A DNA stretch of 64,000 nucleotides from the NCBI GenBank assembly GCA_963700145.1, contig OY969474.1:5088001-5152000 (forward strand), written 5' to 3'. Every line of letters begins with the position of its first letter. Within the stretch, counting starts at the first letter, position 1. This document shows, piece by piece, positions 2,755 through 16,709 of the stretch. Source of the stretch: an uncultured Acidobacteriota bacterium. GTDB lineage: Bacteria; Acidobacteriota; Thermoanaerobaculia; Multivoradales; UBA5704. The notes under the pieces are model-generated. The model saw only the letters and a program-made list of their open reading frames with translations, was not told where the DNA came from and made no database searches. A program made the position numbers and the translations under genes.

Positions 2755-4197
2755 GTGCTCGCCCTGGTTGCCGCGGGACTGCTCGCCGCTCTCGCCCCCG
2801 CCGCCCCTCCCGCTGCACCTCGGCCCCAGTGGGTCACCGCGCCGGCCCCCGCGGTTCAAGAGATGGCGCAGGGGCTCGCCGGTTTCGGCCCCCGGCCGGC
2901 GGGCTCGGCGGCGCACGAAGCGGCCGCCGTCTGGCTGCTGGCGACCATGCGCGCCGCCGGTCTCGAGCAAGTGCGCGCCTGGCCGCTCCCCGGGCGCCCC
3001 CGGCTGCGCAACCTGATCGGCGTCGTACCCGGGGAGCCCGGCGGCGGCGAAGTTCTCCTCACGGCGCACTACGACACCGTCCCGGCGAGCCCCGGCGCCG
3101 GCGACGACGCCTCGGGGTGCGCCGTGGCCATCGCCGCCGCCGCCGAGCTGCGGCGGACGCCGCTCCGCCACACCGTCCGCGTCGTCCTCTTCGACGGCGA
3201 GGAGGACGGCCTGCACGGCAGCCGCGCCTTCCTGCGCGCCCGCGGGCAGGCCGGCCGCGACGCGACCCTCGCCGTCTTGAACCTCGAGATGTTGGGATGG
3301 CGCGAGAGCCCGGGGGCGACGATCCTCGCCTGGGGGGTGCCGCGCGACGGCCGCCTGGCGCAGCCGCCGGCCTGGCTGGTGCACGCCCTGCTGCGCGCCG
3401 GCGAGGCGGTGGATTGGCCGCTGGCGCTCACCGACCCGACGGTGCCGCTGCTCTCGCAGCTCCTCGTGCGCTCGACCCGCCCGGCCTTCGGCAGCGACGC
3501 CGATCCCTTCATCGCCGCCGGCGTGCCCGCGGTGACCGTCTCGGACAGCCCGCTCCTCGCGCTCGACCCGGCGTACCACACCGCCGCGGACACCGCCGAG
3601 CGCCTCGACGCCGCGCGCCTGGCGCGCTGGACGGAGGCGACGGCCGCCGCCGTGCGCCGGCTCGACGCCCTCGCCGGCCGGCCGGTGCCGGAGGACCGCT
3701 ACCTCGTCGGCCTGGGCCGCGTCTGGCTGCACCGCGACCTGCTCTGGGTCGGCTTCCTGCTCTGGGCGCTCCTCGTCGTGCGCGGCCTCGCCGGCCGCCG
3801 CCGCCGGCGCGACGCTCCGCCCGAGGAGCGGCTGGCGGCGCAGCGGCGGGGGCTCCCGGCGTTCGTCTTCCGCGCCCTGCTGCTCGCGGCGGTGGTGACG
3901 GCGCCGGTCTTCGCGGTGCTCCTCTGGCCGGCCGCCGCGCTTGCGGCATGGCTGCCGCGCCGCCGCGCGCTGCGCCTGCTCTGGACGGGGCTGGCGGCCC
4001 TGCCCGCCGCCGCTTACGCCGCGACGCTCCTCTACGCCTGGGGGAAGGGCCTCGTCGGCCCCTGGGCGCCGCCCCTCCCCGGCTTCGCCTTCGTCGCCGC
4101 GGCCCTCGCCGCCTTCCTCTACCTCTGCGCGCGCGAGGAAGCTGCCAGCTCCGCCAGCAGCCCGATCGCCCGGTCGCACTCCTCCTCGGAGGTGTAG
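2755..4197 (+). CDS. M28 family metallopeptidase with C-terminal transmembrane helices
   Basis: TAHYDTV, GAGDDASG, FDGEEDGL, NLEM, YHTAADT; start uncertain (GTG 2755 follows TATCAT). Confidence 0.85.
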   Translation: MLALVAAGLLAALAPAAPPAAPRPQWVTAPAPAVQEMAQGLAGFGPRPAGSAAHEAAAVWLLATMRAAGLEQVRAWPLPGRPRLRNLIGVVPGEPGGGEVLLTAHYDTVPASPGAGDDASGCAVAIAAAAELRRTPLRHTVRVVLFDGEEDGLHGSRAFLRARGQAGRDATLAVLNLEMLGWRESPGATILAWGVPRDGRLAQPPAWLVHALLRAGEAVDWPLALTDPTVPLLSQLLVRSTRPAFGSDADPFIAAGVPAVTVSDSPLLALDPAYHTAADTAERLDAARLARWTEATAAAVRRLDALAGRPVPEDRYLVGLGRVWLHRDLLWVGFLLWALLVVRGLAGRRRRRDAPPEERLAAQRRGLPAFVFRALLLAAVVTAPVFAVLLWPAAALAAWLPRRRALRLLWTGLAALPAAAYAATLLYAWGKGLVGPWAPPLPGFAFVAAALAAFLYLCAREEAASSASSPIARSHSSSEV

Positions 4198-5315
4198 AAG
4201 TGCGGCGCCAGGCGGATGCCCGCGCCCGGGCGGAAGTCGCAGATGACCTCGCGCGAGAGGAGCTCGCGGCAGAGCCGCTCGCCGTCGGGGTGCCAGACGG
4301 TGACGGTGCCGCCGCGCCGCTCCAGGTCGCGCGGCGAGCGCACCTCGAAGCCGGCGGCCAGCGCCGCGTCGACGAGCCGGCCGGTCAACGCCAGCGACCG
4401 CTCGCGGATGCGCCGCGCCCCGACCGCGGCGACGATCCGGTAGCCCGGCCGGCAGGCGTAGAGGGCCGGGACGTTCGGCGTGCCGGTGAGGAAGCGCCAG
4501 GCGCCGGCGGCCGGCCGGATCGGCCCGGAGCGGAAGGCGAAGGGCTCCTCGTCGGCCTGCCAGCCGGTCAGCGCCGGCGCCAGCCGTCCGGCCAGGTCGG
4601 GGCGGACCCAGAGGTAGCCCGCGCCCGGCCCGCCGCACAGCCACTTGACCGAGCCGCCGACCGCGGCGTCCACGCCCCAGGCCGCGAGCTCCAGCGGCAG
4701 CGAGCCGGTCGACTGGTAGACGTCGAGGAGGAGGAGGGCGCCGGCCTCGCGGCAGCGGCGGGCGATCGCCGCGGCGTCCTGCACCCAGGCGCTCTTGAAG
4801 AGGACGTGGGAGACGGCGACCAGGCGGGTGCGCTCGTCGATCGCGGCGAGCAGGCGGTCGGTCTCGACGCCGAGGCCGTCCTCGCCGGCCGGCACCGTCA
4901 CCACCTCCGCCCCCTTCCGCCGCTCCCCGTCGACGAGGTAGAGGAGAGTGGGGAAGTCGAGGTCGGTGGTGACGACGCGGTTGCGCTGCGGCGGGTAGTC
5001 GAGGCAGGAGAGGAAGACCCCCGCCGCGACGGTGACGTTCTGGTGCATCGAGACCTCGCCGGGGCCGACGCCGAGGAGAGGCGCCAGGAGGTCGCCGGTC
5101 GTGACCGGCATCTCCCACCACCCCTCGTGCCAGGCGCGCACGCCGCGCTCCTCCCAGGCGCGGGCGTAGGCGGCCAGCTCGGCGTGGACGCCGCGCGGCA
5201 TCGCGCCCAAGGAGTTGCTGATCAGGTAGGTGGTGCGGGCGAGGATCGGAAACTCCTCGCGCAGGGCGAGCAAACCGAGGTCCGGGCTCATCGGCTCGGT
5301 GACAAGGAGGTTCAT
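4119..5315 (-). CDS. Kynureninase-like PLP-dependent class V aminotransferase
   Basis: SNSLGAMP, DVYQS, GGSVKWLCGGPG, IRLAPHFY; ATGA overlap with upstream gene. Confidence 0.8.
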   Translation of the reverse strand: MNLLVTEPMSPDLGLLALREEFPILARTTYLISNSLGAMPRGVHAELAAYARAWEERGVRAWHEGWWEMPVTTGDLLAPLLGVGPGEVSMHQNVTVAAGVFLSCLDYPPQRNRVVTTDLDFPTLLYLVDGERRKGAEVVTVPAGEDGLGVETDRLLAAIDERTRLVAVSHVLFKSAWVQDAAAIARRCREAGALLLLDVYQSTGSLPLELAAWGVDAAVGGSVKWLCGGPGAGYLWVRPDLAGRLAPALTGWQADEEPFAFRSGPIRPAAGAWRFLTGTPNVPALYACRPGYRIVAAVGARRIRERSLALTGRLVDAALAAGFEVRSPRDLERRGGTVTVWHPDGERLCRELLSREVICDFRPGAGIRLAPHFYTSEEECDRAIGLLAELAASSRAQR

Positions 5316-6196
5316 TCCTTCCACCCGAAGATCTTGTAGGCATTGGCCCGCAGGACCTTGCGCACCACCGCGTCAGGGAGTCCAAGCGCCAGAAAGTCCT
5401 GGATGTTTTCCCCGAGATCGCGCACCCCCGGGCTCGGCCAGTCGGTCCCCCAGAGGACCTTGTCGGCGATCTCCGGCAGGCGCGGCAGGTACTGGAGGAG
5501 CCGCTTCGGCGGGATGCCCGAGACGTCGAGGTAGACGTTGGGGTGCCGGCGGGCCAGGAAGAAGCACGTCTCCATGTAGAGCGGCCGGCCGGCGTGCGCG
5601 AGGATGAGCGTCAGGTCGGGGAAGTCCACCGCCACGTCGTCGCAGGGCATCGGGTCGGCGAAGCGGTTGCGGGCGCCGGGGAAGACCGAGGTGCCGGTGT
5701 GGACCATGACCGGCATCCCGAGCGCCTGCGCCGTCTCGTAGACCCGGCCGAGCCCGGGCAGGTCGAAGAGGTAGGCGTTGGCCGCGTGCTCCTGGTGCGG
5801 CGGGTGGACCTTCAAGCCGCGGATCCCCAGCTCGCGCAGCCGCTCCACCTCGCCGCCGGGGTCGTCGACGTGACGCGGGTGGACGCCGCCGAAGGGGATC
5901 AGCCGGTCGGGCGCGTGGCGGGCGATCCCGGCCACGAAGTAATTCACCGCCGCGGTGAAGCCCATCAGGTCGGGCGCGACGTAGTTGATCATCGCGATCC
6001 GCTCGACCCCCGCCCGGTCCATCCGCGCCAGGATCTCGTCGGGGCGCCGCATCAGCGCCGCGAGCGCCGCCTGCTCGGCCGGGTCCTTGCCGATCTTCGC
6101 CCGCGCCTCCGGGCGCATCTCCTCCCAGGGCTGGATGTGGACGTGGAGGTCGATGACCGGCACCGGCGGCCGCACGGCCGCGGCCGCCTCCCGCAC
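5312..6196 (-). CDS. Amidohydrolase_2 family metal-dependent hydrolase
   Basis: IDLHVH, GLKVHP, VHTG, LAHAG, WGTDWP; GTG overlaps upstream TAG. Confidence 0.88.
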   Translation of the reverse strand: MREAAAAVRPPVPVIDLHVHIQPWEEMRPEARAKIGKDPAEQAALAALMRRPDEILARMDRAGVERIAMINYVAPDLMGFTAAVNYFVAGIARHAPDRLIPFGGVHPRHVDDPGGEVERLRELGIRGLKVHPPHQEHAANAYLFDLPGLGRVYETAQALGMPVMVHTGTSVFPGARNRFADPMPCDDVAVDFPDLTLILAHAGRPLYMETCFFLARRHPNVYLDVSGIPPKRLLQYLPRLPEIADKVLWGTDWPSPGVRDLGENIQDFLALGLPDAVVRKVLRANAYKIFGWKE

Positions 6197-6972
6197 TAGC
6201 GCCCCTTCCACTGCGCCGGCCGCTTCTCCAGGAAGGCCGCCACCCCTTCCGCCTTGTCCTCGGTCGAGAAGAGGAGGCAGAAGAGGTCGCGCTCGTAGAG
6301 GATCCCCTCCTCGATGGCCAGCCGCTGGCTGGCGCGCACCGACTCCTTGGCGATCTTGAGCGTCAGCGGGCTCCTGCCGGCGATCTTGGCCGCCAGCTCG
6401 AAGGTCTTCGCCCGCAGCTCCTCGTGCGGCACGACGAGCTCGACCAAGCCGATCTCCTTGGCCTCGGCGGCGCCGATCATGTCGCCGCTCAGGACCAGCC
6501 GCATCGCGTGCCCGAGCCCGACCAGCCGCGGCAGCCGCTGGGTGCCGCCGCCGCCGGGGATGAGACCCAGGTTGATCTCCGGCTGGCCGAAGCGGGCCTT
6601 GTCCGAGGCCACCCGCAGGTCGCAGGAGAGGGCCAGCTCGCAGCCGCCGCCCAGGCAGAAGCCGTTGATCATGGCGATGACCGGCTTGGGGAAGAGCGCC
6701 ATCGCCTCGAAGATGCGCGGCGGGCGCATGGCGTGCCGCTGGTCGAGCGGGGTGCGGCCGGCGAACTCGCCGATGTCGGCGCCGGCGACGAACGACTTCT
6801 CGCCCGCGCCGGTCAGGACGACGACGCCCACGCCGGCGTCGGCCTCCAGCTCGGCGAGGGCGGCGAGCAGCTCCTCGCGCACCTGCTCGTTGAGGGCGTT
6901 GAGCTTGTCGGGTCGGTTGAAGGTCAGCAGCGCGACGCGCCCCTCGCGCTCCAGCAGGATGGTCTCGGGCAT
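6196..6972 (-). CDS. Enoyl-CoA hydratase/isomerase (crotonase)
   Basis: AGADI, GGGCELA, FGQPEINLG, PGGGGTQRL. Confidence 0.93.
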   Translation of the reverse strand: MPETILLEREGRVALLTFNRPDKLNALNEQVREELLAALAELEADAGVGVVVLTGAGEKSFVAGADIGEFAGRTPLDQRHAMRPPRIFEAMALFPKPVIAMINGFCLGGGCELALSCDLRVASDKARFGQPEINLGLIPGGGGTQRLPRLVGLGHAMRLVLSGDMIGAAEAKEIGLVELVVPHEELRAKTFELAAKIAGRSPLTLKIAKESVRASQRLAIEEGILYERDLFCLLFSTEDKAEGVAAFLEKRPAQWKGR

Positions 6973-7123
6973 CGGGTCTCCTCCGGGAGAGGCTTCTGGC
7001 CGCGGAAGCTATCGCAGGGAGTGGCCGCGAGGCCATCTGGGAGCGCGCGGCGCAGGCCAACGAGGCGTGGCTTGGAGAGGGTTGCCTTGGCCGCAGGTTG
7101 CCGCCTTGTGCACGGGCATTTCA

Positions 7124-7152
7124 TTGACTTAGGTAGGAAGACCGCGTAGGAT
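7124..7152 (+). promoter_or_regulatory. Sigma70-type promoter
   Basis: TTGACT-17 nt-TAGGAT upstream of the 7277 ORF. Confidence 0.6.
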
Positions 7153-7276
7153 AAAACACAGCTGTGATCTTTCAACAGGAGGTGATGATCCACTCGGTTT
7201 GAAGTGTGGGGTCTGTCTTCGGACCCCCGTTAAGGCTCTTTGAAAAACCGCTCTGAACACAAAAGGAGCCGGATCC

Positions 7277-7555
7277 ATGGATCCGCTTACGCAGTTTGGG
7301 TGGGGATTCGCTGGAAGTGTAGCCCTTGAAATCCTGCTGCTACACCGCGTGGTCAGGTCGGGAAGATCAACCCCTAGGTACTTCAGAGGCGCCCGATACT
7401 GGGTAGTCTCTCTTCTTGTTGCGGTGGTCGCTGGAACCTTGGCTGTGGCAATGCAGGTACCTACGCCGCTACTGGCAATGCAGCTCGGCATCGCTACGCC
7501 CATGATCATCAGCCGTTGGTCGAAAGAGCGCCCGCTCGCTGAGGATCGCGGCTGA
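7277..7555 (+). CDS. Small hypothetical membrane protein (92 aa)
   Basis: AAGGAG RBS, 2-3 hydrophobic segments, lower-GC DNA. Confidence 0.65.
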   Translation: MDPLTQFGWGFAGSVALEILLLHRVVRSGRSTPRYFRGARYWVVSLLVAVVAGTLAVAMQVPTPLLAMQLGIATPMIISRWSKERPLAEDRG

Positions 7556-7689
7556 CTCACCTTGAGAGCGACGGGTTCCCACCCGTCGCTCTCCCGTTTG
7601 GCCCTCCGTACAATCTATGACGGCGCACGCGGCCTTCGAGGCCGGGGGAAGCGCTGATCTAGCCGATCTACGGACGGCGCCAGCCCGGG

Positions 7690-8766
7690 TCAGTCGTGCG
7701 ACGCGGGGCCCTCCACGGGCTGCAGCCGCTCCTCGGCGGCCTTGCGCGCCGCCTCCTCGCGCGCGGCGCGCTCGACCTCCTCCTGGGCGTCGTTGTGCGC
7801 CAGCCGCGCCCGCTCGCGCTCGCCGAGGTCGACGGCGTCCTCCTCGGCGCGGGCCCGCGACTCGCGGCCGCGCAGCAGGGCCAGCGCCGCCTCGCCCTCC
7901 AGGCCGAAGAGCGAGCGCAGGTTGAGGTCGCGCTGCGGGAACGGCACCTCGAGCCCGTACTTGTCGAGCGCGGTCTCGAGCGCCCACAGGTACGCGGCCT
8001 GGACCGCGCTCGGCCGCTTGGTGGCCTCGGCCGTGAGCCAGACGACGAGCTCGAAGTCGAGGCTGCTGTCGCCGAACCCGACGAGCCAGACCTGCGGCCG
8101 GCGCGGGCCTTCCAGGGCGACGGTGAAGGGCACCTCGGCGGCCGCCTCGAGGGCGGCCTTCTTGACCAGCTCCTTGTCGCTGCCGTAGGCGATGGCGAAC
8201 GGGATGCGCATGCGCCGCGAGACGTCGCCGTGCGTCCAGTTGACCACCCGGCCGACCACGAACTCCGAGTTGGGCACCAGGATGTCGACGTTGTCGTTGG
8301 TCGAGATGAGGGTCGAGCGGATGTTGATGTCCCGCACCTCGCCGTGCAGGCCCGACTCGAGCTCGACGAAGTCGCCGACCCGCACGCTGCGCTCAAAGAG
8401 CAGGATGATCCCGGAGATGAAGTTGCTGAAGATCGCCTGCAGGCCGAACCCGAGGCCGACGCCGAGGGCCGCGGCCAGCACCGCGAAGCGGCTGGTCGGG
8501 ATGCCGAGGAAGCTCAGCGCGAGCATCACCCCGATGCCGTACAGCGCGTAGGTGGCGATGCGCGAGAGCGTGTAGAAGGCGGCGCGGCTGCGCATCTCGC
8601 GCTGCCCCGCGTGCCGCGCAAAGGCGCGCTGCATCGCCCGCGACAGCGCCCAGATGGCGAGGAAGGTGAGGACGGCGGCGATCACCCCGCCGACCGAGAA
8701 GGAGAACTGCCCCAGCTCGAAGCGGTAGGCGATGACCTGCTGGAGCTGCTCGCGCACGGAGCCCAT
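7690..8766 (-). CDS. Small-conductance mechanosensitive channel (MscS family)
   Basis: GVGLGFGLQAIFSNFISG, VRVGDFVE, VPNSEF, EVPFPQRD; ATG 8766 chosen. Confidence 0.92.
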   Translation of the reverse strand: MGSVREQLQQVIAYRFELGQFSFSVGGVIAAVLTFLAIWALSRAMQRAFARHAGQREMRSRAAFYTLSRIATYALYGIGVMLALSFLGIPTSRFAVLAAALGVGLGFGLQAIFSNFISGIILLFERSVRVGDFVELESGLHGEVRDINIRSTLISTNDNVDILVPNSEFVVGRVVNWTHGDVSRRMRIPFAIAYGSDKELVKKAALEAAAEVPFTVALEGPRRPQVWLVGFGDSSLDFELVVWLTAEATKRPSAVQAAYLWALETALDKYGLEVPFPQRDLNLRSLFGLEGEAALALLRGRESRARAEEDAVDLGERERARLAHNDAQEEVERAAREEAARKAAEERLQPVEGPASHD

Positions 8767-8829
8767 AGGCTCAGGCGATCCTACCCCGGCGGCTCCAGCC
8801 GGCCGTGGGCTTTTCGCTAGACTCCATTC

Positions 8830-9279
8830 GTGCGCGTCTACCTCGACCTCTGCTGCCTCAAGAGGCCTTTCGACCTGCAGGAGGAGCCCCTTATCCGGCT
8901 TCAGACCGAGGCTGTGCTGAGCATCCTCGCCCTTCCGTCCGACACCGTCGAGCTCCTTCAAAGTCCGGCTCTCGTTCTGGAGAACAGCCTCAACCCGAAC
9001 CAGCCCCGCCGTGAGGCGGTCGGCCTCTTGCTGTCGCAGGCAGTTGACATCCCACTCAACGAGACCGACCTGTCCGCGCGCATCGAGGAGATCAACGCGA
9101 GGGGCTTCAAGACCTTCGATGCCTTTCATCTCGCGTGCGCAGAGCTATCTGGCGCCGCTGCTTTTCTCACCGTAGACCTTCAACTCCTTAGACTTGGATC
9201 GCGAATGCCAGGCGAGCTTCGGGTCAAGGTCACCGACCCCGTTCAATTCATCGAGGAGGTCTCCCAGTGGAAGCAATGA
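8830..9279 (+). CDS. PIN-domain (VapC-like) toxin
   Basis: VYLDLCCLKRPFD, FDAFHLACA, FLTVD: PIN acidic residues. Confidence 0.82.
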   Translation: MRVYLDLCCLKRPFDLQEEPLIRLQTEAVLSILALPSDTVELLQSPALVLENSLNPNQPRREAVGLLLSQAVDIPLNETDLSARIEEINARGFKTFDAFHLACAELSGAAAFLTVDLQLLRLGSRMPGELRVKVTDPVQFIEEVSQWKQ

Positions 9280-9479
9280 TCACGAATCAGAGTGAGCTGA
9301 GGGATCGTGGGTTTCGTGCCCTCGTGGAGGCCCTGGGCTGGGCCAACGCAGTCCGATTCCTGCGCCAGTATGACCCCGGCTCAGGAAACTACACCGAGGA
9401 ACGAAGAAACCTGCTGCCGGACTGGGATGCCTCCACCCTTATCCAAAAAGCCAAAGAGGTGCAGAAGCCGCGCGATTGA
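9267..9479 (+). CDS. Putative antitoxin partner of the PIN protein
   Basis: Small overlapping ORF; GFRALVEALG..AVRFLRQYDPGSGNYTEER resembles PIN-associated partners. Confidence 0.65.
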   Translation: MEAMITNQSELRDRGFRALVEALGWANAVRFLRQYDPGSGNYTEERRNLLPDWDASTLIQKAKEVQKPRD

Positions 9480-9526
9480 TCTGTGAGCGGCCGCCTTTCC
9501 GTGCCGTATGCTGCTCGGAGACCGAC

Positions 9527-9724
9527 ATGACCGTCGACCCCATCGTCGAGGAGCTCGATCGACTGCGCGCGGAGCAGATGGCTCGGCTCAACTTCGATTT
9601 CGGGGCGTTCTACCGCGAGCTCCGGGAGCAGCAGAGCCTACTTACGCGCCCGGCGCTGCCTCCGCCGGAGTCGTCGCCGCGGCCGCGTGCCCGGCGCACG
9701 GTCCGCCCCGCCGGCCGCCGTTGA
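9527..9724 (+). CDS. Small hypothetical protein, antitoxin-like
   Basis: GGAG RBS; DPIVEEL..R......NFD pattern recalled from small PIN-associated proteins. Confidence 0.5.
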   Translation: MTVDPIVEELDRLRAEQMARLNFDFGAFYRELREQQSLLTRPALPPPESSPRPRARRTVRPAGRR

Positions 9725-9782
9725 CGCTCGATCGTGAGGGGGTTGGCTTCGGGAGGGCGTTCTCTCTGCGAGGTTGAATACG

Positions 9783-10385
9783 ATGAAACTGAGACTGCCG
9801 CTCCTCGTCGTCGCCAGCGTCTTGCTTGCCGCCGCTGGGAAGCCGAGAACCTACATGGGCTACGCGGTGCGCGAGATGCAGTTTCCGATCGCCGGTGGGG
9901 AGGTCGTGTCGTTGCCCGTGACGGACGCAGGGCCGATTCCCGCGGAGAACCGGGCCTTCAAGATCGAGGTGGCCGGATTCTCGATCACGCCTGCGCTCTT
10001 CGAGCCCAAGAGAGCGACTCTCACCTGGCAGTTTTCGCTGACTGCGAAGAGCGGCAAGGCCTTGGATCGTGTCGTCGTGGAGGAGGTGTTCCCGAGCGAT
10101 ACCGCCCAGGTGCTGGTGGACGACCGGACGCCTGCCCTCAAGCACACGGCCCGCGAGCCGGGCCCTGGAGATCGCGCCGACCGATGGCTTGGCGTTACCG
10201 CCGGCGTCGAGCCGACCTCCGCCTCGACCCCTTGGCTCTTTACCGAGAAAGCTTCGATCTTCGTCTTCCGCTTCAGGATTCACCCGGCCGGCGGTGCCCC
10301 CGTCGTTCTCTACCAGCCGGCATGGTTCTCGTCCCCCGCCAAGGAGGCGTTCAGGCAGAACATCGCGCGCATCAACGGCGGCTGA
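9783..10385 (+). CDS. Secreted hypothetical protein
   Basis: Signal peptide MKLRLPLLVVASVLLAAAG; beta-rich mature part. Confidence 0.7.
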   Translation: MKLRLPLLVVASVLLAAAGKPRTYMGYAVREMQFPIAGGEVVSLPVTDAGPIPAENRAFKIEVAGFSITPALFEPKRATLTWQFSLTAKSGKALDRVVVEEVFPSDTAQVLVDDRTPALKHTAREPGPGDRADRWLGVTAGVEPTSASTPWLFTEKASIFVFRFRIHPAGGAPVVLYQPAWFSSPAKEAFRQNIARINGG

Positions 10386-10605: not shown

Positions 10606-10828
10606 AGACGGAGGAGCTTCGGCTGCGCGGCGAGCGGCAGCTCCTCGACGTGGTCGAGCACCAGCGTCCCGCCCGCGGCGCGCGCCACCCGCCCCTCGCT
10701 CGCGCGCTCGGCGCCGGTGAAGGCGCCGGGGCGGTAGCCGAAGAGCTCGCTCTCGAAGAGCGCGCTGGGGAAGGCGCCGGGGTCGACCTCGACGAGCGGC
10801 CCGCCGGCGCGCGGGCCGGCGGCGTGGA
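10603..10828 (-). pseudogene. Fragment of a sigma54-activator AAA+ domain
   Basis: FESELFGYRPGAFTGA, AAGGTLVLDHVEELPLAAQPKLLRL with no start or downstream domain. Confidence 0.8.
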
Positions 10829-11218
10829 GGCCGAGGTGCGTTTCCTGCAGCAGGCGGCGATCGACATCGTCTACTCGCACCACGAGCGCTGGGACGGGGC
10901 GGGTTACCCGCGCGGGCTGGCCGGGTCGGCGATCCCGCTGGCGGCGCGGATCTTCGCGGTGGTGGACACCTACGACGCGATCACCTCGGACCGGCCCTAC
11001 CGCCGGGCGCGCGGGCACGCGGCGGCGGTGGCGGAGCTGCAGCGCGTGGCGGGCACGCAGCTCGACCCCGAGATCGTCGAAGTCTTCGCCCGTCTCCCCG
11101 AAGTCGAGCTCCGCCGCCTCCGCGAGCGCTACCGCCACGTCCACCCCGGCCTCTCCCTGCCTGCCGAACTCTTCGACTCGCTGCTGGAGAGCGGCGTCCG
11201 CAAGCCGATCGCGCGCGA
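10829..11218 (+). pseudogene. Inverted partial copy of the 3' end of the HD-GYP gene (about 1546-1934)
   Basis: Near-identical peptide AEVRFLQQAAID...LLESGVR; lacks the HD motif and 5' half. Confidence 0.88.
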
Positions 11219-11238
11219 AGAGAGCTTCGGCGGCAGGT

Positions 11239-11715
11239 CTACGAATCACCACGTCGTTTCTCGAGGTCCCCCGGCGAAGGGCCACCAAAGACCACATCGC
11301 CACCCGCTGCGATGCTGCTATTCGCGGCAGCCACGGCTCGGGTTCCTTGGGCAATGGCGCCATCTCCTTCGAGGTGGGCCCACGATGCGTGCGGACCGGC
11401 CGCCTCGAGCAATCTCGCGATCTCCTCCGCGAAGCTCGGATTGGCGACAAGAAGCTCCTCGACCTGGAGTTCGAGGGCTCCCTGAGCTCGCGGATCCGTG
11501 GGCCGCCGGATCACCTCCTCCACCGCGGCGCGCCCACTCTCCTTCGCCGCCACCTGCGGTTTGAGCCGACCCCAGAGCGCCTTCGCTCCTTCCCACACGC
11601 TCTCGCCCACCTTGTGAGCGATCTCTCCCGCCATCTTCCCTCCCGCCTGCTCGAGGTACGGCAGAAGCGGCACGAGCAGGCCGGTCACTTCACGGGCCAA
11701 CGCTGCGAAGTCCAT
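11239..11715 (-). CDS. Small helical protein homologous to the NACHT protein's N-terminus (Bell-like domain plus putative amyloid motif)
   Basis: AAAGGAG RBS; MDFAALARE..L.PLLPYL...LWGRL.P...P.DP; C-terminal GDGAIAQG..AVAA..SIAAGGDV. Confidence 0.75.
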   Translation of the reverse strand: MDFAALAREVTGLLVPLLPYLEQAGGKMAGEIAHKVGESVWEGAKALWGRLKPQVAAKESGRAAVEEVIRRPTDPRAQGALELQVEELLVANPSFAEEIARLLEAAGPHASWAHLEGDGAIAQGTRAVAAANSSIAAGGDVVFGGPSPGDLEKRRGDS

Positions 11716-11741
11716 TGCTGTCTCCTTTCTCGCCGACAGTG

Positions 11742-12881
11742 CTATTTCTTGGGAACCAGTCCCACGGTAGTGCCACACCACGGAGGCATCTTGCCGTTGA
11801 CAACGCTGCACATCGGATCACGCGTCAGCCGGCACGAGAAGCCAACCGGGCGATCCTCCAGGCAAAGCATTCGCAGCTCGCAGAAGAGCCGGGGACCGTC
11901 CGGCGGCTGGACCCAGGGAGCGAGCTGGACTCTCTCCTGGAGGACGTGCGGAGTCCCGCTGCGCAGCGCCGCCTCCACGTCTGCCGGGGTCGGGTGCAGG
12001 ACCACTCCGCGTCCCGCGACCTCGTTAGCCGGCTTGAGAACGAAGTCGACCCGTTCCGCCCACTCCCATGCGGTCTCCGCGGTCAGATTGACCGTCTCGG
12101 GCACTAAATCCGACACCTCGCGGAGCCACGGCAAGCTGCGTTTACCTAACATGAAGAACCAGTCGGGGTGCAGAACCCAATCGCGCGGCTGCCTGCAAAA
12201 TGCCTGGAAAACCTCCTCGTGCCCGGTCAGCTCGGTTTCGACAGGCAGGACCCGGGAGTAGATGCGACGCCGGGAGCTGTCGAGCCGCCGCAGCGTATCC
12301 CACGTCAGGTCGACAATCTCGACGTCGGCAATACTCTGCAGGACCAGAAAATCGGTACGCGAGCGCTGCTGGGAAGCGTCGATGTCCACTAGCACCGAAT
12401 CTCCGACGACGGAAATCAGGTGCTCGCAGTACTCCCGCCACGATCGGTAGCTGAGAAACGGCGTGCACCCCTCGACCACTTGCTCAGTGAGGAGGTGGCC
12501 GAACCAAGGCACGACTCCCATGAACGAGGACAGGCCCTGGCATTCGAGCAGTCGAGGAATGAGCTCTCCACCGCCTCCGAGGCCGAGGGCGAAATCGAAC
12601 TGAGACAGAGATGGAATATCGCCCCGTTGGCCACCACCGCGGTATTTTTCGGGTACCCACTTAGCAGCCTCTTTCCGGTAATCATCGCAACGGATACGCG
12701 CGAAGAACGCCGACACAGCGGCAGCGAGCCAACGTGCCAGACGGCGGGAAACGAAGACCGGGCTCGCGGCGAGTGGAAAGGTGATCTCTTCACCAGTGGC
12801 GGTGGCGATCTGGTCGCGGATCCGTTGTACTGCGGCGGCATCGAAGCTGCGATTAAACCGTGCGCGATGGGAGGTGATCAT
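11742..12881 (-). CDS. ATP-grasp-like (glutathionylspermidine synthase-like) protein
   Basis: QFDFAL, PRLLECQG, FVLKPANEVAGRGV, VLQERV, ELRM; ATGA-coupled to the NACHT gene. Confidence 0.65.
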   Translation of the reverse strand: MITSHRARFNRSFDAAAVQRIRDQIATATGEEITFPLAASPVFVSRRLARWLAAAVSAFFARIRCDDYRKEAAKWVPEKYRGGGQRGDIPSLSQFDFALGLGGGGELIPRLLECQGLSSFMGVVPWFGHLLTEQVVEGCTPFLSYRSWREYCEHLISVVGDSVLVDIDASQQRSRTDFLVLQSIADVEIVDLTWDTLRRLDSSRRRIYSRVLPVETELTGHEEVFQAFCRQPRDWVLHPDWFFMLGKRSLPWLREVSDLVPETVNLTAETAWEWAERVDFVLKPANEVAGRGVVLHPTPADVEAALRSGTPHVLQERVQLAPWVQPPDGPRLFCELRMLCLEDRPVGFSCRLTRDPMCSVVNGKMPPWCGTTVGLVPKK

Positions 12882-15800
12882 GGAGGGTGGTGCAGCATGA
12901 CGCGGAACCCGATCCCTCCGTCCCGCACTCCAGGGTCGTACCAGGAACGGTAAGCGCAGCGGATGTACCGAGGGGTGCGAACATACGAGCCCCCGCGCAC
13001 AATGCGGAACACGGTCGCGGGAGCCTCCAGGTCCTCCCGTCCGTCCGCCAAATCGTAGGGGTACTTGAACGCAATCTCCAGGGGGTCCTCTCCCCAAAGG
13101 CTGCGCGTCCACTCCCACACGTTGCCGGCCATCTCCTCGCAGCCGTAGGGGCTCGCGCCGCCGGGGAAACAGCCGACGGGGCTCGGCCTGCCGATCCCAG
13201 TCAACCCGAAGCTGGCGCGGTCGGCGTCCACCCAGTCTCCCCAAGGATAGATTCTGCCGTCGGTTCCCCGGGCTGCCTTTTCCCATTCCGCCTCTGACGG
13301 CAACGACACCCGCCATTCCCCATCCGCGAGGCGTTGCCAAAAGTCACGTCTCTCGCGATCCAGTGGCTCGCTCAACCGCCGGCCGGCCAGCTCGCGCAGG
13401 CGCTCTCCCAACCATCGGCAGTACGCGAGGGCGTCATACCAGGTGATGTAGACCACCGGCTGGTTCAGCAGGCCCGCGAGGCACTTGCGATTTTCGAGTT
13501 CGTACGCACTCCGCTCCACGAACTCGGCGAACTGCTGCACTGTCACCGGATAGCGTGCGAGGGCGCAGTCGGCGACCTGCACGTAGTGTGGCGCCATCTC
13601 GTCGTCGCAGGCGTCGGCGTCTCGCGCTCTGTCGCTGCCCATCAGAAAGGCCCCCGCGGGCAGCTCGACGAAGCCCAGCGCCGGCTCCCGCGGCAGGTAA
13701 CAAAGCTCCGGGTCGAAGCGGGAATCGCCCAGCCGGGCGAGGCTCGTACCCGCCTGCGCCCGCTCGATGGCAGCGAAACCGAGGCGACCGTCGCGGATGA
13801 GACGGAGGAGGAACCGCTGGATGCGCTCAAGCTTGAGCCGGTTCGGCTCGCTTACGGTCTCCAGGTCGGCCGACTCGGCTAGGAGCTGTCCGGCGAGCTG
13901 GGCTCCCCAGGCGTCCGCCGCACCTGCTGCTCGGTCGTCAGGTTCCCGCCAACAGAGCGCTTCCGCCAGGCTCCATACCGTCGCCGCAGATCGGCGGGCC
14001 TCCTTCGCTCCCGCCAACAGCACGACCTCTCGCCAGCGGTCGTGCTCCGCCCGTCCCAGCCCCGCCACCCGGTCGGGAAATGAATCTCCGGTCAGATGGC
14101 AGGCGGCCAAATATTCCTGGAAGGTGCGGTGGAGGAACGTGTACACCCCCACGCCGCGGGACTCGAGAATCCCGGCCCGGTCGCGCAAGTATTCCACCAG
14201 ACGCTTGGGATTGGCTTCCGGGTTGCGGCTCAAGTGCATTAGCAGCGCCACCAGCCTGCCCTCGTCGATATCTGCCGTGCCGGCGGCCCCCGCCTGCGCC
14301 GTATGGACCTCGTAGGCTAGTTGCTGGAGGGCCCCGCGGACCTTCTCCATACCGGTGTCCAGGAACTCCGTGAGACTCGGGTGGGGCTTCCCGTTTGTGT
14401 CCAGGGTTACGCGCTGCCTCTCCCATGAACTGAGTAGCAGCTCCAGGGCTTCGGCGTAGAGTTCCTCACGCCGCTGCGGCAGTTCGCCCCCACGCGAGGC
14501 GTGAAGGTTGGCCATCAAAGTCAGCAGCAGCGGACGCTCCGCTAGCTCTCGCAACCGGGGATTGCCGAGGATGGACCGTTCGAGCTGCGCGGCCTGCGCC
14601 GACGCATCTTTGGGTACAAGTTGTCCTTTAGCCGCTTGGTGCGCGTACCAGGCGCGAACGAAGCGGCGGATCTGGCCCGTGCCGAAGGGTGCGAGCACGG
14701 CCTCAGAGAATCCCGGCAGACGCCACCTCTGGTTGCGATAGGCATAGGAGCGGCTCGTGAGGAGCACGCGGCATTTGCCGAACCCTTCGACAAAGGCCTC
14801 GACCACCTGGCGGATCTGATCGCGCCGGGTGTCGGCCTCGGGCACCTCGTCGAGGCCGTCGAGCAGCAGGAGACCACCGCGGGTGAGCAGCTCCCGCTTG
14901 AGGAAGGTGCAATATTCACCGAAGCCGGCCTCTCGCAGATCGCGCTCGAGAGCGTCCCAGAGGTCCTGGGCCGTCGCCTTGCGGCCTCGCTCCGGAAGCT
15001 TCGTCGCGAGATGACGCAGCACGACCCGCACTGGCAGGAGAGGACCGTGGTCCCAGGGCTGTCGCTCTCTCTCGGCATGGCCCTGCTCATCCGGCAGCGG
15101 CGCTGTCAACCGTTCCAAGTTAATCCCCGGCAGGCCGAGCACCTCGCCCGCATGGCAGAGGGCGACAAAGCTCACGAACGTGCTCTTGCCGCTGCCTGGC
15201 TCTCCTAGGAGGACAAGGCGCTCATGTCGATTCATTTCCTCGAGAGCGGAGGAAGGACGAGATGCCATCCGGTCTCCCCGCTCGTCGGCGGCGGCGTGCT
15301 CGGCCCGGGTCGACAACGCAGTGTAGACGGCCTCGAGATTCAGCCGAGCTTCGGAATCGGGTGCCGGGGCGGACTCCGCTGCAGCCAGCGAAATGAACCC
15401 GGTCTGCTCCGCTACGCGCCGGAGATAGGCGTCGCGGAGGGCCGCTTCACCGGTGTCGGCCGCTGGCATGCCGCCGATGATCGTCTGATTCTCGATGAGA
15501 TCCCGCCCTGCGGCCCTGCTCAGGCCGCTGGCCACCACATTGCCTTCCCCCTGCGCCAACGCTCCCGAGCCGCGCAGCAGGACGCGGTAGTTCGTATCTC
15601 CCGGAGAGTTCGCAGCGAACAGCTGCGCCATCTCGGCGGCGAGACCCGCGTCGCTATCCAGGATTTTCCGCAGTTCGACCCGCAGCGCCGCCTTGAGATC
15701 CGGATCCTGCGGCGTCACCGAGAGATCCTGCGCCACCTCGACAGCTTGGGGCTTGGCCCCGATCAATGGCCAGAGCCTCGTCCAAAGTCTCTCGCCCTGC

Positions 15801-15937
15801 TGCAGAGTCTCGGTGTCGAATTCGCCGCCCTTCTCCACGCCGACCTTTTTCTCACCCAGCCCCCCCGCGCTCACGAGATCGGGCAGTAGTGGAGCAAGGA
15901 ATTCGGCGAGCGCTCGGGCGAGCTGAGAGGCATCCAT
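12878..15937 (-). CDS. NACHT NTPase with C-terminal FGE-sulfatase/SUMF1 (CLec-fold) domain; bacterial NLR-like
   Basis: Walker A GEPGSGKST, Walker B LLLLDGLDE, PLLL, FLHRTFQEYLAA; FLMGSD, LPSEAEWEKAARG, MAGNVWEW, RGGS, IGFR. Confidence 0.92.
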   Translation of the reverse strand: MDASQLARALAEFLAPLLPDLVSAGGLGEKKVGVEKGGEFDTETLQQGERLWTRLWPLIGAKPQAVEVAQDLSVTPQDPDLKAALRVELRKILDSDAGLAAEMAQLFAANSPGDTNYRVLLRGSGALAQGEGNVVASGLSRAAGRDLIENQTIIGGMPAADTGEAALRDAYLRRVAEQTGFISLAAAESAPAPDSEARLNLEAVYTALSTRAEHAAADERGDRMASRPSSALEEMNRHERLVLLGEPGSGKSTFVSFVALCHAGEVLGLPGINLERLTAPLPDEQGHAERERQPWDHGPLLPVRVVLRHLATKLPERGRKATAQDLWDALERDLREAGFGEYCTFLKRELLTRGGLLLLDGLDEVPEADTRRDQIRQVVEAFVEGFGKCRVLLTSRSYAYRNQRWRLPGFSEAVLAPFGTGQIRRFVRAWYAHQAAKGQLVPKDASAQAAQLERSILGNPRLRELAERPLLLTLMANLHASRGGELPQRREELYAEALELLLSSWERQRVTLDTNGKPHPSLTEFLDTGMEKVRGALQQLAYEVHTAQAGAAGTADIDEGRLVALLMHLSRNPEANPKRLVEYLRDRAGILESRGVGVYTFLHRTFQEYLAACHLTGDSFPDRVAGLGRAEHDRWREVVLLAGAKEARRSAATVWSLAEALCWREPDDRAAGAADAWGAQLAGQLLAESADLETVSEPNRLKLERIQRFLLRLIRDGRLGFAAIERAQAGTSLARLGDSRFDPELCYLPREPALGFVELPAGAFLMGSDRARDADACDDEMAPHYVQVADCALARYPVTVQQFAEFVERSAYELENRKCLAGLLNQPVVYITWYDALAYCRWLGERLRELAGRRLSEPLDRERRDFWQRLADGEWRVSLPSEAEWEKAARGTDGRIYPWGDWVDADRASFGLTGIGRPSPVGCFPGGASPYGCEEMAGNVWEWTRSLWGEDPLEIAFKYPYDLADGREDLEAPATVFRIVRGGSYVRTPRYIRCAYRSWYDPGVRDGGIGFRVMLHHPP

Positions 15938-16403: not shown

Positions 16404-16697
16404 GCCGGGCGGATCGTCCCGGCTGTCGGGAAAGTCGTCCCGGCCGTCCGGAAAGTTATCCGAGCCGCCGGGAAAGCTATCCCGACGGCCGGGAAAGTTA
16501 TCCCGATGGTCGGGAAAGCTATCCCGGCGGCCCGGAAAGCTATCCTGACTGCCAAGAAAGTTATCCCGATTATCGGGAAAGCTTTCCCGATGGTCCAGAA
16601 AGCTATCCCGATCGCCGGAAAAGCTTTCCCGATGGCCGGGAAAGTTATCCCGACGGCTGGGAAAGCTTTCCCGACGGCCGGGAGGGTCTTCCCGAGG
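16404..16697. repeat. Tandem array of 14 x 21-bp units with a palindromic core
   Basis: Unit approx. gccgggaaagctatcccgacg; core CGGGAAAGCTTTCCCG is self-complementary. Confidence 0.92.
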
Positions 16698-16709
16698 TCC
16701 GGGGAGTCC

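What the first reader, a model, noticed from the sequence alone, without database searches (positions are those of the whole stretch)
11239..15937. NLR-like operon: NACHT-FGE sensor, ATP-grasp protein and a small protein sharing the sensor's N-terminal domain and putative amyloid motif
Seen: three co-oriented lower-GC genes. The first ~145 aa of the NACHT protein (MDASQLARALAEFLAPLLPDL...LWTRLWP...PQDP...GSGALAQGEGNVVASGLSRAAGRDL) align end to end with the 158-aa protein (MDFAALAREVTGLLVPLLPYL...LWGRLKP...PTDP...GDGAIAQGTRAVAAANSSIAAGGDV). Known: bacterial NLRs paired with Bell-domain proteins through shared G/A/N/Q-rich amyloid signalling (BASS) motifs have been described, mainly in multicellular bacteria. 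Inference: this is such an immunity/cell-death module. It is unusual in that the sensor carries the whole effector-like domain and an enzyme gene sits between the pair.
Basis: partly seen in the sequence, partly recalled or inferred. Interest (0 to 1): 0.88.

Follow-up and report, generated by a model that had tools for sequence, protein, structure and literature searches.

The report
NLR sensor, paired killer-like protein, inserted ligase
A bacterial immune-type sensor and a small helical protein share a domain and a glycine/alanine-rich tail, as in known amyloid-signalling cell-suicide pairs, while the ligase gene between them looks like a one-off insertion.

Summary
Three tightly packed minus-strand genes encode a 1019-aa NACHT/FGE-sulfatase NLR, a 379-aa protein and a 158-aa protein. 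NLR residues 1-148 align with the small protein at 33% identity, E 4e-19. The small protein belongs to a large unnamed family: 2383 representatives at E<=0.001, mostly 130-165 aa. It folds as a confident ~106-residue helical bundle with a disordered Gly/Ala-rich tail. In relatives the same family forms the classic Bell/BASS-type layout, where the neighbouring NLR carries only the tail motif at its N-terminus and the cognate tail is the best match of 128-135 tails in 3 cases. NLRs that carry the whole domain are common: 11 of 55 family matches. The middle gene is a real ATP-grasp ligase with a circularly permuted glutathione-synthetase fold. It is not conserved here: 0 of 13 related NLR/small loci hold it, and the three genomes with its closest genomic homologues lack the small family. 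Verdict: a new member of a known kind with a lineage-specific ligase insertion. This scan noted similar NACHT-FGE/small-protein pairs on other DNA. Amyloid formation, killing activity and defence are untested.

The parts
12878..15937 (-). NLR gene, 1019 aa: helical N-domain, G/A motif, NACHT NTPase, FGE-sulfatase (FGS) sensor domain
   Evidence: ORF; Pfam FGE-sulfatase E 1.4e-48 and NACHT E 2.5e-9
15608..15937 (-). NLR residues 1-110: helical domain homologous to the small protein
   Evidence: BLASTP E 4e-19; profile hit E 1.5e-39
15494..15577 (-). NLR residues 121-148: Gly/Ala-rich motif (LRGSGALAQGEGNVVASGLSRAAGRDLI)
   Evidence: Local alignment to the small protein's tail; same motif class at the N-termini of motif-only NLRs in relatives
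14639..15250 (-). NACHT NTPase core, about residues 230-433, with the P-loop near residue 240
   Evidence: Pfam NACHT, nSTAND3 and AAA-type P-loop hits at 230-433
12899..13675 (-). FGE-sulfatase (FGS) domain, residues 755-1013: presumed ligand sensor
   Evidence: Pfam PF03781 E 1.4e-48. No template-repeat copy of its 3' end in the genome
11742..12881 (-). Circularly permuted ATP-grasp amidoligase (glutathione-synthetase / GspS-like fold), 379 aa; ATGA overlap with the NLR stop
   Evidence: AF2 pLDDT 91.2; Foldseek 2hgs E 2.1e-12, TM 0.57; invariant E113, Q115, K283, Q315, R337, R351 across 24 sequences; junction sequence
11239..11715 (-). Small protein, 158 aa: helical domain plus disordered G/A-rich tail (Bell-like effector candidate)
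   Evidence: AF2 gives helices 3-106 at pLDDT >90 and a tail 110-158 at <50; family of 2383 representatives
11290..11373 (-). Small protein residues 115-142: Gly/Ala-rich motif (LEGDGAIAQGTRAVAAANSSIAAGGDVV)

Best explanation
This is a horizontally acquired NLR cell-death or defence module of the Bell/BASS type, with an unrelated ligase gene inserted into it.

Shown: the NLR combines a NACHT NTPase with a C-terminal FGE/FGS lectin-like domain. At its N-terminus it carries a ~106-residue helical domain followed by a ~28-residue Gly/Ala-rich motif. The downstream 158-aa protein is a free copy of that domain plus motif.

Inferred mechanism:
1. Ligand binding by the FGE domain releases NACHT oligomerisation.
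2. Oligomerisation clusters the G/A-rich motifs into a stacked beta (amyloid or beta-solenoid-like) seed.
3. The seed recruits and converts the tails of free small-protein molecules.
4. Conversion frees the hydrophobic first helix of the helical domains, both those on the NLR and those recruited, to attack the membrane and kill or arrest the cell.

The ATP-grasp ligase (glutathione-synthetase fold) is co-transcribed. It is most likely a recent lineage-specific insertion with an accessory or unrelated role, not a core part of the system.
For: Homology of the NLR N-terminus and the small protein: E 4e-19.

Fold: a confident helical bundle at residues 3-106 with a disordered tail, the Bell/HeLo-type layout.

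Family: 2383 representatives at E<=0.001, mostly 130-165 aa. Of the 10 longer hits scanned, 8 carry STAND NTPase domains and 2 have no Pfam family: 4 NACHT-FGE, 2 NB-ARC-TPR, 1 NACHT, 1 AAA_16/NACHT-like.

Canonical pairing in relatives:
- G075: the small tail and the N-terminus of the adjacent NACHT-FGE share ITASGD.SVAA.NINAPVII.
- G012: a motif-only NLR2 lies next to a small gene.
- Aulosira laxa plasmid: a small gene plus a STAND gene.

Cognate tail rank: 1 of 128 (G012 NLR2), 1 of 128 (G075), 1 of 135 (G018 C10), 4 of 135 (G019 C28).

Adjacency: in all 13 related loci the small gene lies next to a NACHT NLR, NACHT-FGE in 12 and NACHT-WD40 in G123.

Ligase as an insertion: present in 0 of 13 related loci and in 1 of 401 phylum genomes at E<=1e-60. 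The three genomes with its closest genomic homologues have 0 of 3 small-family hits and no NLR or small-protein homologue within 7 kb. It has the lowest G+C of the three genes, 0.627.

From papers:
- Bell/BASS pairs and their amyloid behaviour (Dyrka preprint 10.1101/2020.01.06.895854, sections 5 and 9 and passages).
- A Bell-related effector shown to act in abortive infection through amyloid signalling (Ibarlosa preprint 10.1101/2024.11.07.622273, abstract, section 4, passages).
- STAND-FGS systems with N-terminal adaptor or effector domains (Kaur 2021, PMC8195603, passages).
Against: - In this window the NLR's motif is not pair-specific. Its own neighbour's tail ranks 13 of 128; G012 NLR1, the other whole-domain NLR tested this way, ranks 28 of 128. 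In one search, 4 further pairings ranked only 10 to 31 of 135, a fifth NLR that carries the whole domain (G854) ranked 40 of 135, and one was dropped for a mis-set frame (G028b).
- The NLR's helical domain is closer to small proteins of other genomes (41-45% identity) than to its neighbour (33%).
- No sequence or fold link to a solved Bell, HeLo or Bab structure was found.
- No Pfam family matches the domain.
- I could not test membership in Dyrka's Bell HMM or in a numbered BASS family, because those profiles and consensus logos sit in figures and supplements I could not read.
- No experiment shows fibrils, membrane damage or phage defence for this family.
- The ATGA overlap and the 26-nt gap show that the ligase is expressed with the pair, so a functional role cannot be excluded.
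Confidence: 0.6

Rival explanations
1. EAD-type homotypic docking. The shared helical domains, not the tails, bind each other as Death-like or effector-associated domains do. The small protein is then an adaptor, a decoy or an inhibitor that caps the NLR's N-domain until activation.
For: The whole domain is shared end to end. Kaur 2020 (PMC7159879, passages) describes this layout: one copy on the core NTPase and a second copy in the adjacent gene. Kaur 2021 describes STAND-FGS proteins with N-terminal EADs.
Against: The second copy carries no effector domain, which the EAD principle expects. No EAD Pfam model matches. In relatives only the tail motif is shared with the NLR, so the motif is enough for coupling.
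Confidence: 0.18
2. The ATP-grasp ligase is an integral part of the module. It either modifies the small protein, for example by adding residues to its acidic C-terminus to gate conversion, or it is an NLR-controlled enzymatic effector.
For: The start/stop overlap is ATGA and the gap to the small gene is 26 nt. Catalytic-type residues are invariant. Many small-family members end in acidic residues.
Against: The ligase is found in 0 of 13 related loci. The genomes holding its closest genomic homologues lack the small family, 0 of 3. Those homologues sit next to small-molecule enzymes: PreATP-grasp/PGM1_C, lysine N-monooxygenase, GCS2 and an M20 peptidase. Acidic C-termini also occur in family members with no ligase nearby.
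Confidence: 0.12
3. A metabolite pathway. The FGE-fold domain acts as an EgtB/OvoA-like sulfoxide synthase, and the ATP-grasp ligates its product, as in the thiohistidine dipeptide clusters.
For: NCBIfam EgtB and SenA models hit the FGE domain at E 1e-22 to 1e-23. NHISS-ATP-grasp clusters are described in PMC13674229 (passages).
Against: The EgtB and SenA scores of 79-83 bits are far below the 360-420 bit cut-offs and cover only the FGE fold. The domain is fused to a NACHT NTPase, like the FGS sensors. All but one of the ATP-grasps in that paper's network are RimK-like, the exception resembling the glutamate-cysteine ligase YbdK; none is glutathione-synthetase-like.
Confidence: 0.03
4. A graspetide-type RiPP. 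The small protein is a precursor peptide that the ATP-grasp cyclises.
For: An ATP-grasp gene sits directly upstream of a small ORF.
Against: The ligase has the glutathione-synthetase/GspS fold. I recall, without checking, that graspetide ligases are RimK-like. The small protein is a folded 106-residue domain from a family that sits beside NLRs without any ligase in 13 of 13 related loci.
Confidence: 0.02

Closest known systems
Bell-domain / BASS amyloid-signalling gene pairs with NLRs (Dyrka et al. 2020, bioRxiv 10.1101/2020.01.06.895854)
   Same: A ~100-residue all-helical N-terminal domain with a ~25-30-residue G-rich C-terminal motif, and the same motif at the N-terminus of an adjacent NACHT or NB-ARC protein. 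Family members occur in Acidobacteriota, and the Atlas look-up lists Actinomycetota and Cyanobacteriota as the commonest taxa of its look-alike clusters (leads only). The pairing is seen directly in relatives.
   Different: Here the NLR carries the whole helical domain in front of the motif, and an enzyme gene lies between the pair. The sensor arm is FGE/FGS, not TPR or WD. Homology to the published Bell HMM and assignment to BASS1-10 could not be tested; earlier notes of this scan call similar pairs BASS6, unverified.
Bab/Agp abortive-infection system of E. coli ECOR25 (Ibarlosa et al. 2024, bioRxiv 10.1101/2024.11.07.622273)
   Same: [quoted passage not shown] It gives an experimentally supported model for how such pairs kill.
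   Different: [quoted passage not shown] Bab is shorter (109 aa, ~80-residue domain). I found no detectable sequence or fold match to any solved structure.
STAND NTPase-FGS systems with N-terminal EADs or effectors (Kaur et al. 2021, PMC8195603; Kibby et al. 2022 preprint 10.1101/2022.07.19.500537)
   Same: A NACHT NTPase with a C-terminal FGE-sulfatase 'antigen-receptor type' domain and an N-terminal adaptor or effector domain, with a second copy of that domain in a neighbouring gene.
   Different: No EAD or Death-like Pfam model matches. The second copy carries no enzymatic effector. No DGR template repeat was found for this FGE domain.
Eukaryotic-type glutathione synthetase / glutathionylspermidine synthetase / YgiC-YjfC ATP-grasp ligases (PDB 2hgs, 1m0w, 2io*, 7uk6, 9cjn)
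   Same: The predicted fold of the middle protein matches at Foldseek E 2e-12 to 1e-7, TM 0.5-0.57. The order of its conserved motifs fits a permuted ATP-grasp: E-x-Q early, then K-P and L-Q later.
   Different: Only 9-15% identity. No Pfam or NCBIfam model matches. The substrate is unknown. The protein is about 80-100 residues shorter than glutathione synthetases.

Membership tests
Bell-domain effector (Dyrka 2020) | A ~100-residue predicted all-alpha domain at the N-terminus of a protein shorter than 200 aa | tested here: met
   AF2 gives six helices over residues 3-106 at pLDDT >90; the protein is 158 aa
Bell-domain effector (Dyrka 2020) | A C-terminal ~25-residue motif that recurs at the N-terminus of an adjacent NACHT or NB-ARC protein | tested here: met
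   In the window, 13 of 28 positions are identical, but the motif lies behind a full domain copy on the NLR. The canonical motif-only form is seen in family members G075, G012 NLR2, G018 C10 and an Aulosira plasmid.
Bell-domain effector (Dyrka 2020) | Sequence homology to the published Bell profile or seed sequences | not testable with these tools
   There is no Bell model in Pfam, NCBIfam or PADLOC, and the seed accessions could not be fetched. The Atlas lead to HetE-N (15% and 26% of cluster members) is not backed by the PF20701 HMM, which gives no hit in the window's own genome at E<=10.
Bell-domain effector (Dyrka 2020; Ibarlosa 2024) | A conserved hydrophobic N-terminal helix (the 'MEPIS'-type region) cupped by the other helices | tested here: inconclusive
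   Helix 1 (residues 3-22) carries the family's most conserved stretch, L-x-P-x-L-P-Y-L. Some members start MDP.[TS][IL]A. I did not align the family to MEPIS sequences and did not compute burial.
BASS amyloid signalling motif | Forms amyloid fibrils or prion-like foci and cross-seeds between receptor and effector | not testable with these tools
   The tail is disordered in the monomer model. The composition is G/A/V/I/Q-rich. Assignment to BASS1-11 is not possible because the consensus logos are in figures and supplements.
Effector-associated domain (EAD) systems (Kaur 2020) | One copy on the core NTPase and the second copy fused to an effector or signalling domain | tested here: not met
   The second copy is free-standing, with only the G/A tail. 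No EAD Pfam model hits.
NACHT-FGS NLR (Kaur 2021; Kibby 2022) | A NACHT NTPase followed by a C-terminal FGE-sulfatase domain | tested here: met
   Pfam NACHT E 2.5e-9 and FGE-sulfatase E 1.4e-48
NACHT-FGS NLR, DGR-diversified subtype | A template repeat and a reverse transcriptase that diversify the FGE tip | tested here: not met
   Only a 36-bp, 86% match to the 3' 373 bp of the gene exists elsewhere in the genome. The three RVT_1 genes all lie more than 0.9 Mb away.
ATP-grasp superfamily, circularly permuted glutathione-synthetase/GspS-like branch | ATP-grasp fold with permuted topology | tested here: met
   Foldseek: 34 PDB hits at E<=0.001. The top hits are 2hgs, 1m0w, 9cjn, 3n6x, 7uk6 and 2io*. 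Classical ATP-grasps (Ddl, RimK, LysX) appear only at E>=9e-4.
ATP-grasp superfamily | A match to a curated sequence model | tested here: not met
   No Pfam, NCBIfam or PADLOC ATP-grasp model hits at E<=1

The most novel reading that the evidence does not exclude
The glutathione-synthetase-fold ligase has been captured as a working part of an amyloid-signalling NLR module. It would either add residues to the effector's tail after translation, to set the threshold for amyloid conversion, or serve as a second, NLR-gated enzymatic output. Either way it would be the first enzyme-tuned BASS-type switch.
Probability: 0.1. Interest if true: 0.75.

Novelty: new member of a known kind. Interest (0 to 1): 0.42.

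Why it matters
The finding adds a large protein family that no Pfam, NCBIfam or PADLOC model matched (2383 representative clusters) to the set of helical effectors wired to NLRs by a short shared beta-motif. It shows this family in Acidobacteriota with FGE-type sensors. It also documents a frequent architecture in which the receptor keeps both the effector domain and the signalling motif while a free copy sits next door. That layout suggests the receptor both kills directly and recruits more effector, which can be tested with peptides and in a laboratory host. The ligase insertion is a curiosity unless it is found again elsewhere.

Tried and rejected
**Context look-ups.** The contexts of the metagenomic homologues P0003-P0011 and P0013-P0018 therefore stay unknown. 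This is the main gap in the non-conservation claim.

**Metagenome scan.** The scan with alignment A1 picked patterns typical of the housekeeping paralogue. All 80 loci returned are 26-34% identical to the middle protein, and none has an NLR or small-protein homologue nearby. They serve only as a control.

**Complex prediction.** Complex prediction on NLR 1-160 against the small protein gave no verdict (score 0.00). I do not use it as evidence either way.

**Sequencing runs.** One DNA holder was listed, probably the source sample, and no RNA holder was listed.

**Structure and family searches for the small protein.**
- PDB sequence search: nothing below E 0.14.
- PDB fold search: nothing at E<=0.001.
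- Pfam: only sub-threshold YadA_head hits on the tail, in 14 of 36 family members.

**HetE-N lead.** The Atlas pointed to HetE-N. The PF20701 HMM found nothing in the window's own genome at E<=10.

**DGR coupling.** Rejected.

**BASS family number.** The preprint text holds no 'BASS6' string. PMC8086366 gives only set sizes. A full-text search for 'BASS6' listed 10 of 57 papers; the only relevant one among those listed was PMC8086366. A whole-word search for 'HetE-N' found 2 unrelated papers. Supplements are closed. Dyrka's Table S2 and the motif HMMs may bear on the BASS assignment.

**Redundant search.** (phylum of G451) returned the same genomes. It added only the inference that the window's genome belongs to the phylum named in L104's record title, Acidobacteriota.

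**Dropped rows.** In one search the G028b pair was dropped because I set the small-gene frame wrongly. L012 and L015, which have in-frame stops, and six further paralogue loci were left out of alignment A1. Only 10 of the long hits were scanned with Pfam.

**What I saw of each paper.**
- Dyrka 2020 preprint: outline, abstract, sections 5 and 9, and passages.
- Ibarlosa 2024 preprint: outline, abstract, section 4, and passages.
- Kaur 2020, Kaur 2021, Kibby 2022, PMC8086366 and PMC13674229: passages only.
- PMC12568646 (Cp1B): search listing and the start of the abstract only.

Full report
**Anatomy.** Three genes lie head to tail on the minus strand:
- a 1019-aa protein at 12878-15937;
- a 379-aa protein at 11742-12881, whose ATG overlaps the upstream stop as ATGA;
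- a 158-aa protein at 11239-11715, 26 nt further on, behind an AAAGGAG ribosome-binding site.

Their G+C is 0.668, 0.627 and 0.669, against 0.721 for the window. Their GC3 is 0.73-0.78, against 0.90-0.975 in two housekeeping genes (MscS and the conserved ATP-grasp paralogue), although the flanking enoyl-CoA hydratase gene is at 0.775. Taken together this points to a foreign island. The flanks hold a PIN-domain gene, an HD-domain gene fragment and a 21-bp tandem array.

**The observation.** The large protein has a NACHT NTPase (E 2.5e-9) and a C-terminal FGE-sulfatase domain (E 1.4e-48). Its first 148 residues align with residues 1-142 of the small protein at 33% identity, E 4e-19. Only these two copies of the domain exist in the 5.46-Mb genome.

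**The shared module.**
- An AlphaFold2 model built on 36 sequences gives a confident helical bundle at residues 3-106 (pLDDT >90) and a disordered tail at 110-158.
- No Pfam, NCBIfam or PADLOC model covers it.
- No solved structure matches by sequence or by fold.
- A profile of 8 sequences found 2383 representatives at E<=0.001 among 1.84 billion cluster representatives, and 1018 at E<=1e-10. Most are free-standing proteins of 130-165 aa.
- Of the 10 longer hits that I scanned, 4 are NACHT-FGE proteins, 2 are NB-ARC-TPR, 1 is NACHT, 1 is AAA_16/NACHT-like and 2 have no Pfam family.
- The tails fall into two classes: G.GAIAQG.GAVAAG.GG(I/V)A(I/V)GG.V, as here, and a shorter ASGERSVAIGGDVSGSTIITGD type.

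**Relatives show the canonical wiring.**
- In genome G075 a 156-aa family member sits directly upstream of a 913-aa NACHT-FGE protein. That protein's first 30 residues repeat the small protein's tail almost letter for letter (ITASGD.SVAA.NINAPVII).
- In G012, from the window's own taxonomic family, the order is NLR1 (whole domain plus motif), NLR2 (motif only) and then the small gene.
- A conjugative plasmid of the filamentous cyanobacterium Aulosira laxa carries a 147-aa member followed by a 1206-aa STAND protein with a matching N-terminal motif.

I scored NLR N-termini against 128-135 family tails:
- The neighbour's tail ranked first for G012 NLR2, G075 and G018 C10, and fourth for G019 C28.
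- Four further motif-only pairings ranked 10 to 31, and the pairing of G854's whole-domain NLR ranked 40.
- One pairing, G028b, was dropped because I set its frame wrongly.

This layout defines Bell/BASS amyloid-signalling pairs (Dyrka preprint, sections 5 and 9). For a Bell-related effector in E. coli, it has been shown to trigger abortive infection through amyloid templating (Ibarlosa preprint, abstract and section 4).

**The 'sensor carries the whole domain' feature is not unusual.**
- Within the window's taxonomic family the domain occurs in 28 of 61 genomes (8 of 11 genera, but 0 of the 4 other genomes of the same genus). Eleven of the 55 matches lie at the start of frames of 979 aa or more.
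- The Dyrka Methods mention filtering out Bell 'all-in-one' NLR architectures.
- This scan had already noted NACHT-FGE proteins paired with a free copy of their N-terminal module on other DNA (e1-4229813).
- For these all-in-one receptors the motif match is at family level, not pair-specific. The window's own small tail ranks 13 of 128 for its NLR, and G012 NLR1 ranks 28 of 128.
- The NLR's helical domain is closer to small proteins of other genomes (41-45% identity) than to its neighbour (33%). The pair is therefore not a recent tandem duplication.
- The NACHT cores closest to the window's (58-63% identity) belong to NLRs with a separate small gene immediately upstream or downstream. This suggests, by inference, that the whole-domain form arose by fusion of an upstream small gene with its NLR.

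**The middle gene.**
- Sequence models are silent on it.
- A 24-sequence alignment gave an AF2 model at pLDDT 91.2.
- Foldseek matched human and yeast glutathione synthetase (E 2e-12, TM 0.57), the ligase Cp1B, glutathionylspermidine synthetase, YgiC/YjfC and 3n6x. Classical ATP-grasps appear only at E>=9e-4.
- Invariant residues include E113-x-Q115, K283, Q315, R337 and R351. I read the E-x-Q pair as the counterpart of the metal-binding E-x-N of ATP-grasps, from recall.

So 'ATP-grasp' is right, in the circularly permuted glutathione-synthetase branch.

**The ligase is not a conserved partner.**
- The genome has one distant paralogue (33% identity) beside an M29 peptidase gene. That paralogue is present in 35 of the 36 other genomes of the family that were searched.
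- The operon-type clade was found in 1 of 401 sampled genomes of the phylum at E<=1e-60, the window's own.
- In the 185,579-species genome collection it was found in only 3 loci, at 66%, 50% and 45% identity.
- Those 3 loci have no NLR or small-protein homologue within 7 kb. Their neighbours are a PreATP-grasp/PGM1_C protein, a lysine N-monooxygenase, and a GCS2 ligase with an M20 peptidase. Their whole genomes hold no member of the small family, 0 of 3.
- None of 13 related NLR/small loci contains the ligase. In seven loci where the small gene follows an NLR, it follows the FGE-coding match by roughly 45-340 nt.
- The ligase also has the lowest G+C of the three genes.

The most economical reading is a recent insertion into the NLR-small junction, now co-transcribed. 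Its role is open.

**Mechanism.** Shown: the domain content, the homology, the fold, the family-wide pairing with NLRs, and the absence of the ligase from the related loci and genomes searched. Inferred, by analogy with the published Bell/BASS and Bab/Agp work:
1. The FGE domain senses a ligand.
2. NACHT oligomerisation clusters the G/A motifs into a beta-stack.
3. The stack templates the free small protein's tail.
4. The helical domains, whose most conserved part is the hydrophobic first helix (L-x-P-x-L-P-Y-L), damage the membrane.

The receptor's own copy could make it both executioner and seed. No DGR diversification of the FGE tip was found.

**Classification.** The NLR/small pair meets the architectural criteria of Bell/BASS systems and of NACHT-FGS NLRs. 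It fails the strict EAD criterion. Homology to the published Bell profile and the BASS family number could not be tested. I rate it a new member of a known kind, with a lineage-specific ligase insertion. It is of moderate interest, mainly as a well-populated family without a matching curated model and as a testable 'receptor keeps the effector' architecture.

Noticed in passing
window 16427-16703: A 21-bp tandem array of about 13 copies (76% matches, with 42- and 63-bp super-periods) lies 490-770 bp upstream of the NLR start.
   Followed up: partly
G000:C1:1834581-1835738 (L004 1486-2688): A distant paralogue (33% identity) of the operon's ATP-grasp ligase lies directly after a Peptidase_M29-like gene. 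It is present in 35 of the 36 other genomes of the taxonomic family that were searched, and at least 557 relatives were found on metagenome contigs. This is a widespread ligase family that no Pfam model matched.
   Followed up: partly
window 8830-9279 (+) and 10650-11564 (+): A PIN-domain ORF (E 1.1e-4, just under the Pfam cut-off) and an ORF holding only the C-terminal part of an HD_5 (HD-GYP type) domain flank the island. This fits rearrangement or insertion at this site.
   Followed up: no
L113 (G012:C138) 3615-9973; L141, L142, L146: In relatives the small gene often sits between two NACHT-FGE genes (NLR, small, NLR). Some copies look degraded, with frame-shifted or fragmentary NACHT and FGE matches in L142, L144 and L146, which suggests rapid turnover of these cassettes.
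   Followed up: partly
L106 (Kerfeldbacteria MAG) 6965-9958: A 45%-identical homologue of the ligase lies next to a GCS2 glutamate-cysteine-ligase-family gene and near an M20 peptidase gene. This hints at a two-step gamma-glutamyl-peptide pathway as the clade's native role.
   Followed up: no
L147 (Aulosira laxa plasmid AP018310.1) 5995-10211: A conjugative cyanobacterial plasmid carries a family member plus a STAND protein with a matching tail motif, so the module travels on mobile DNA.
   Followed up: partly
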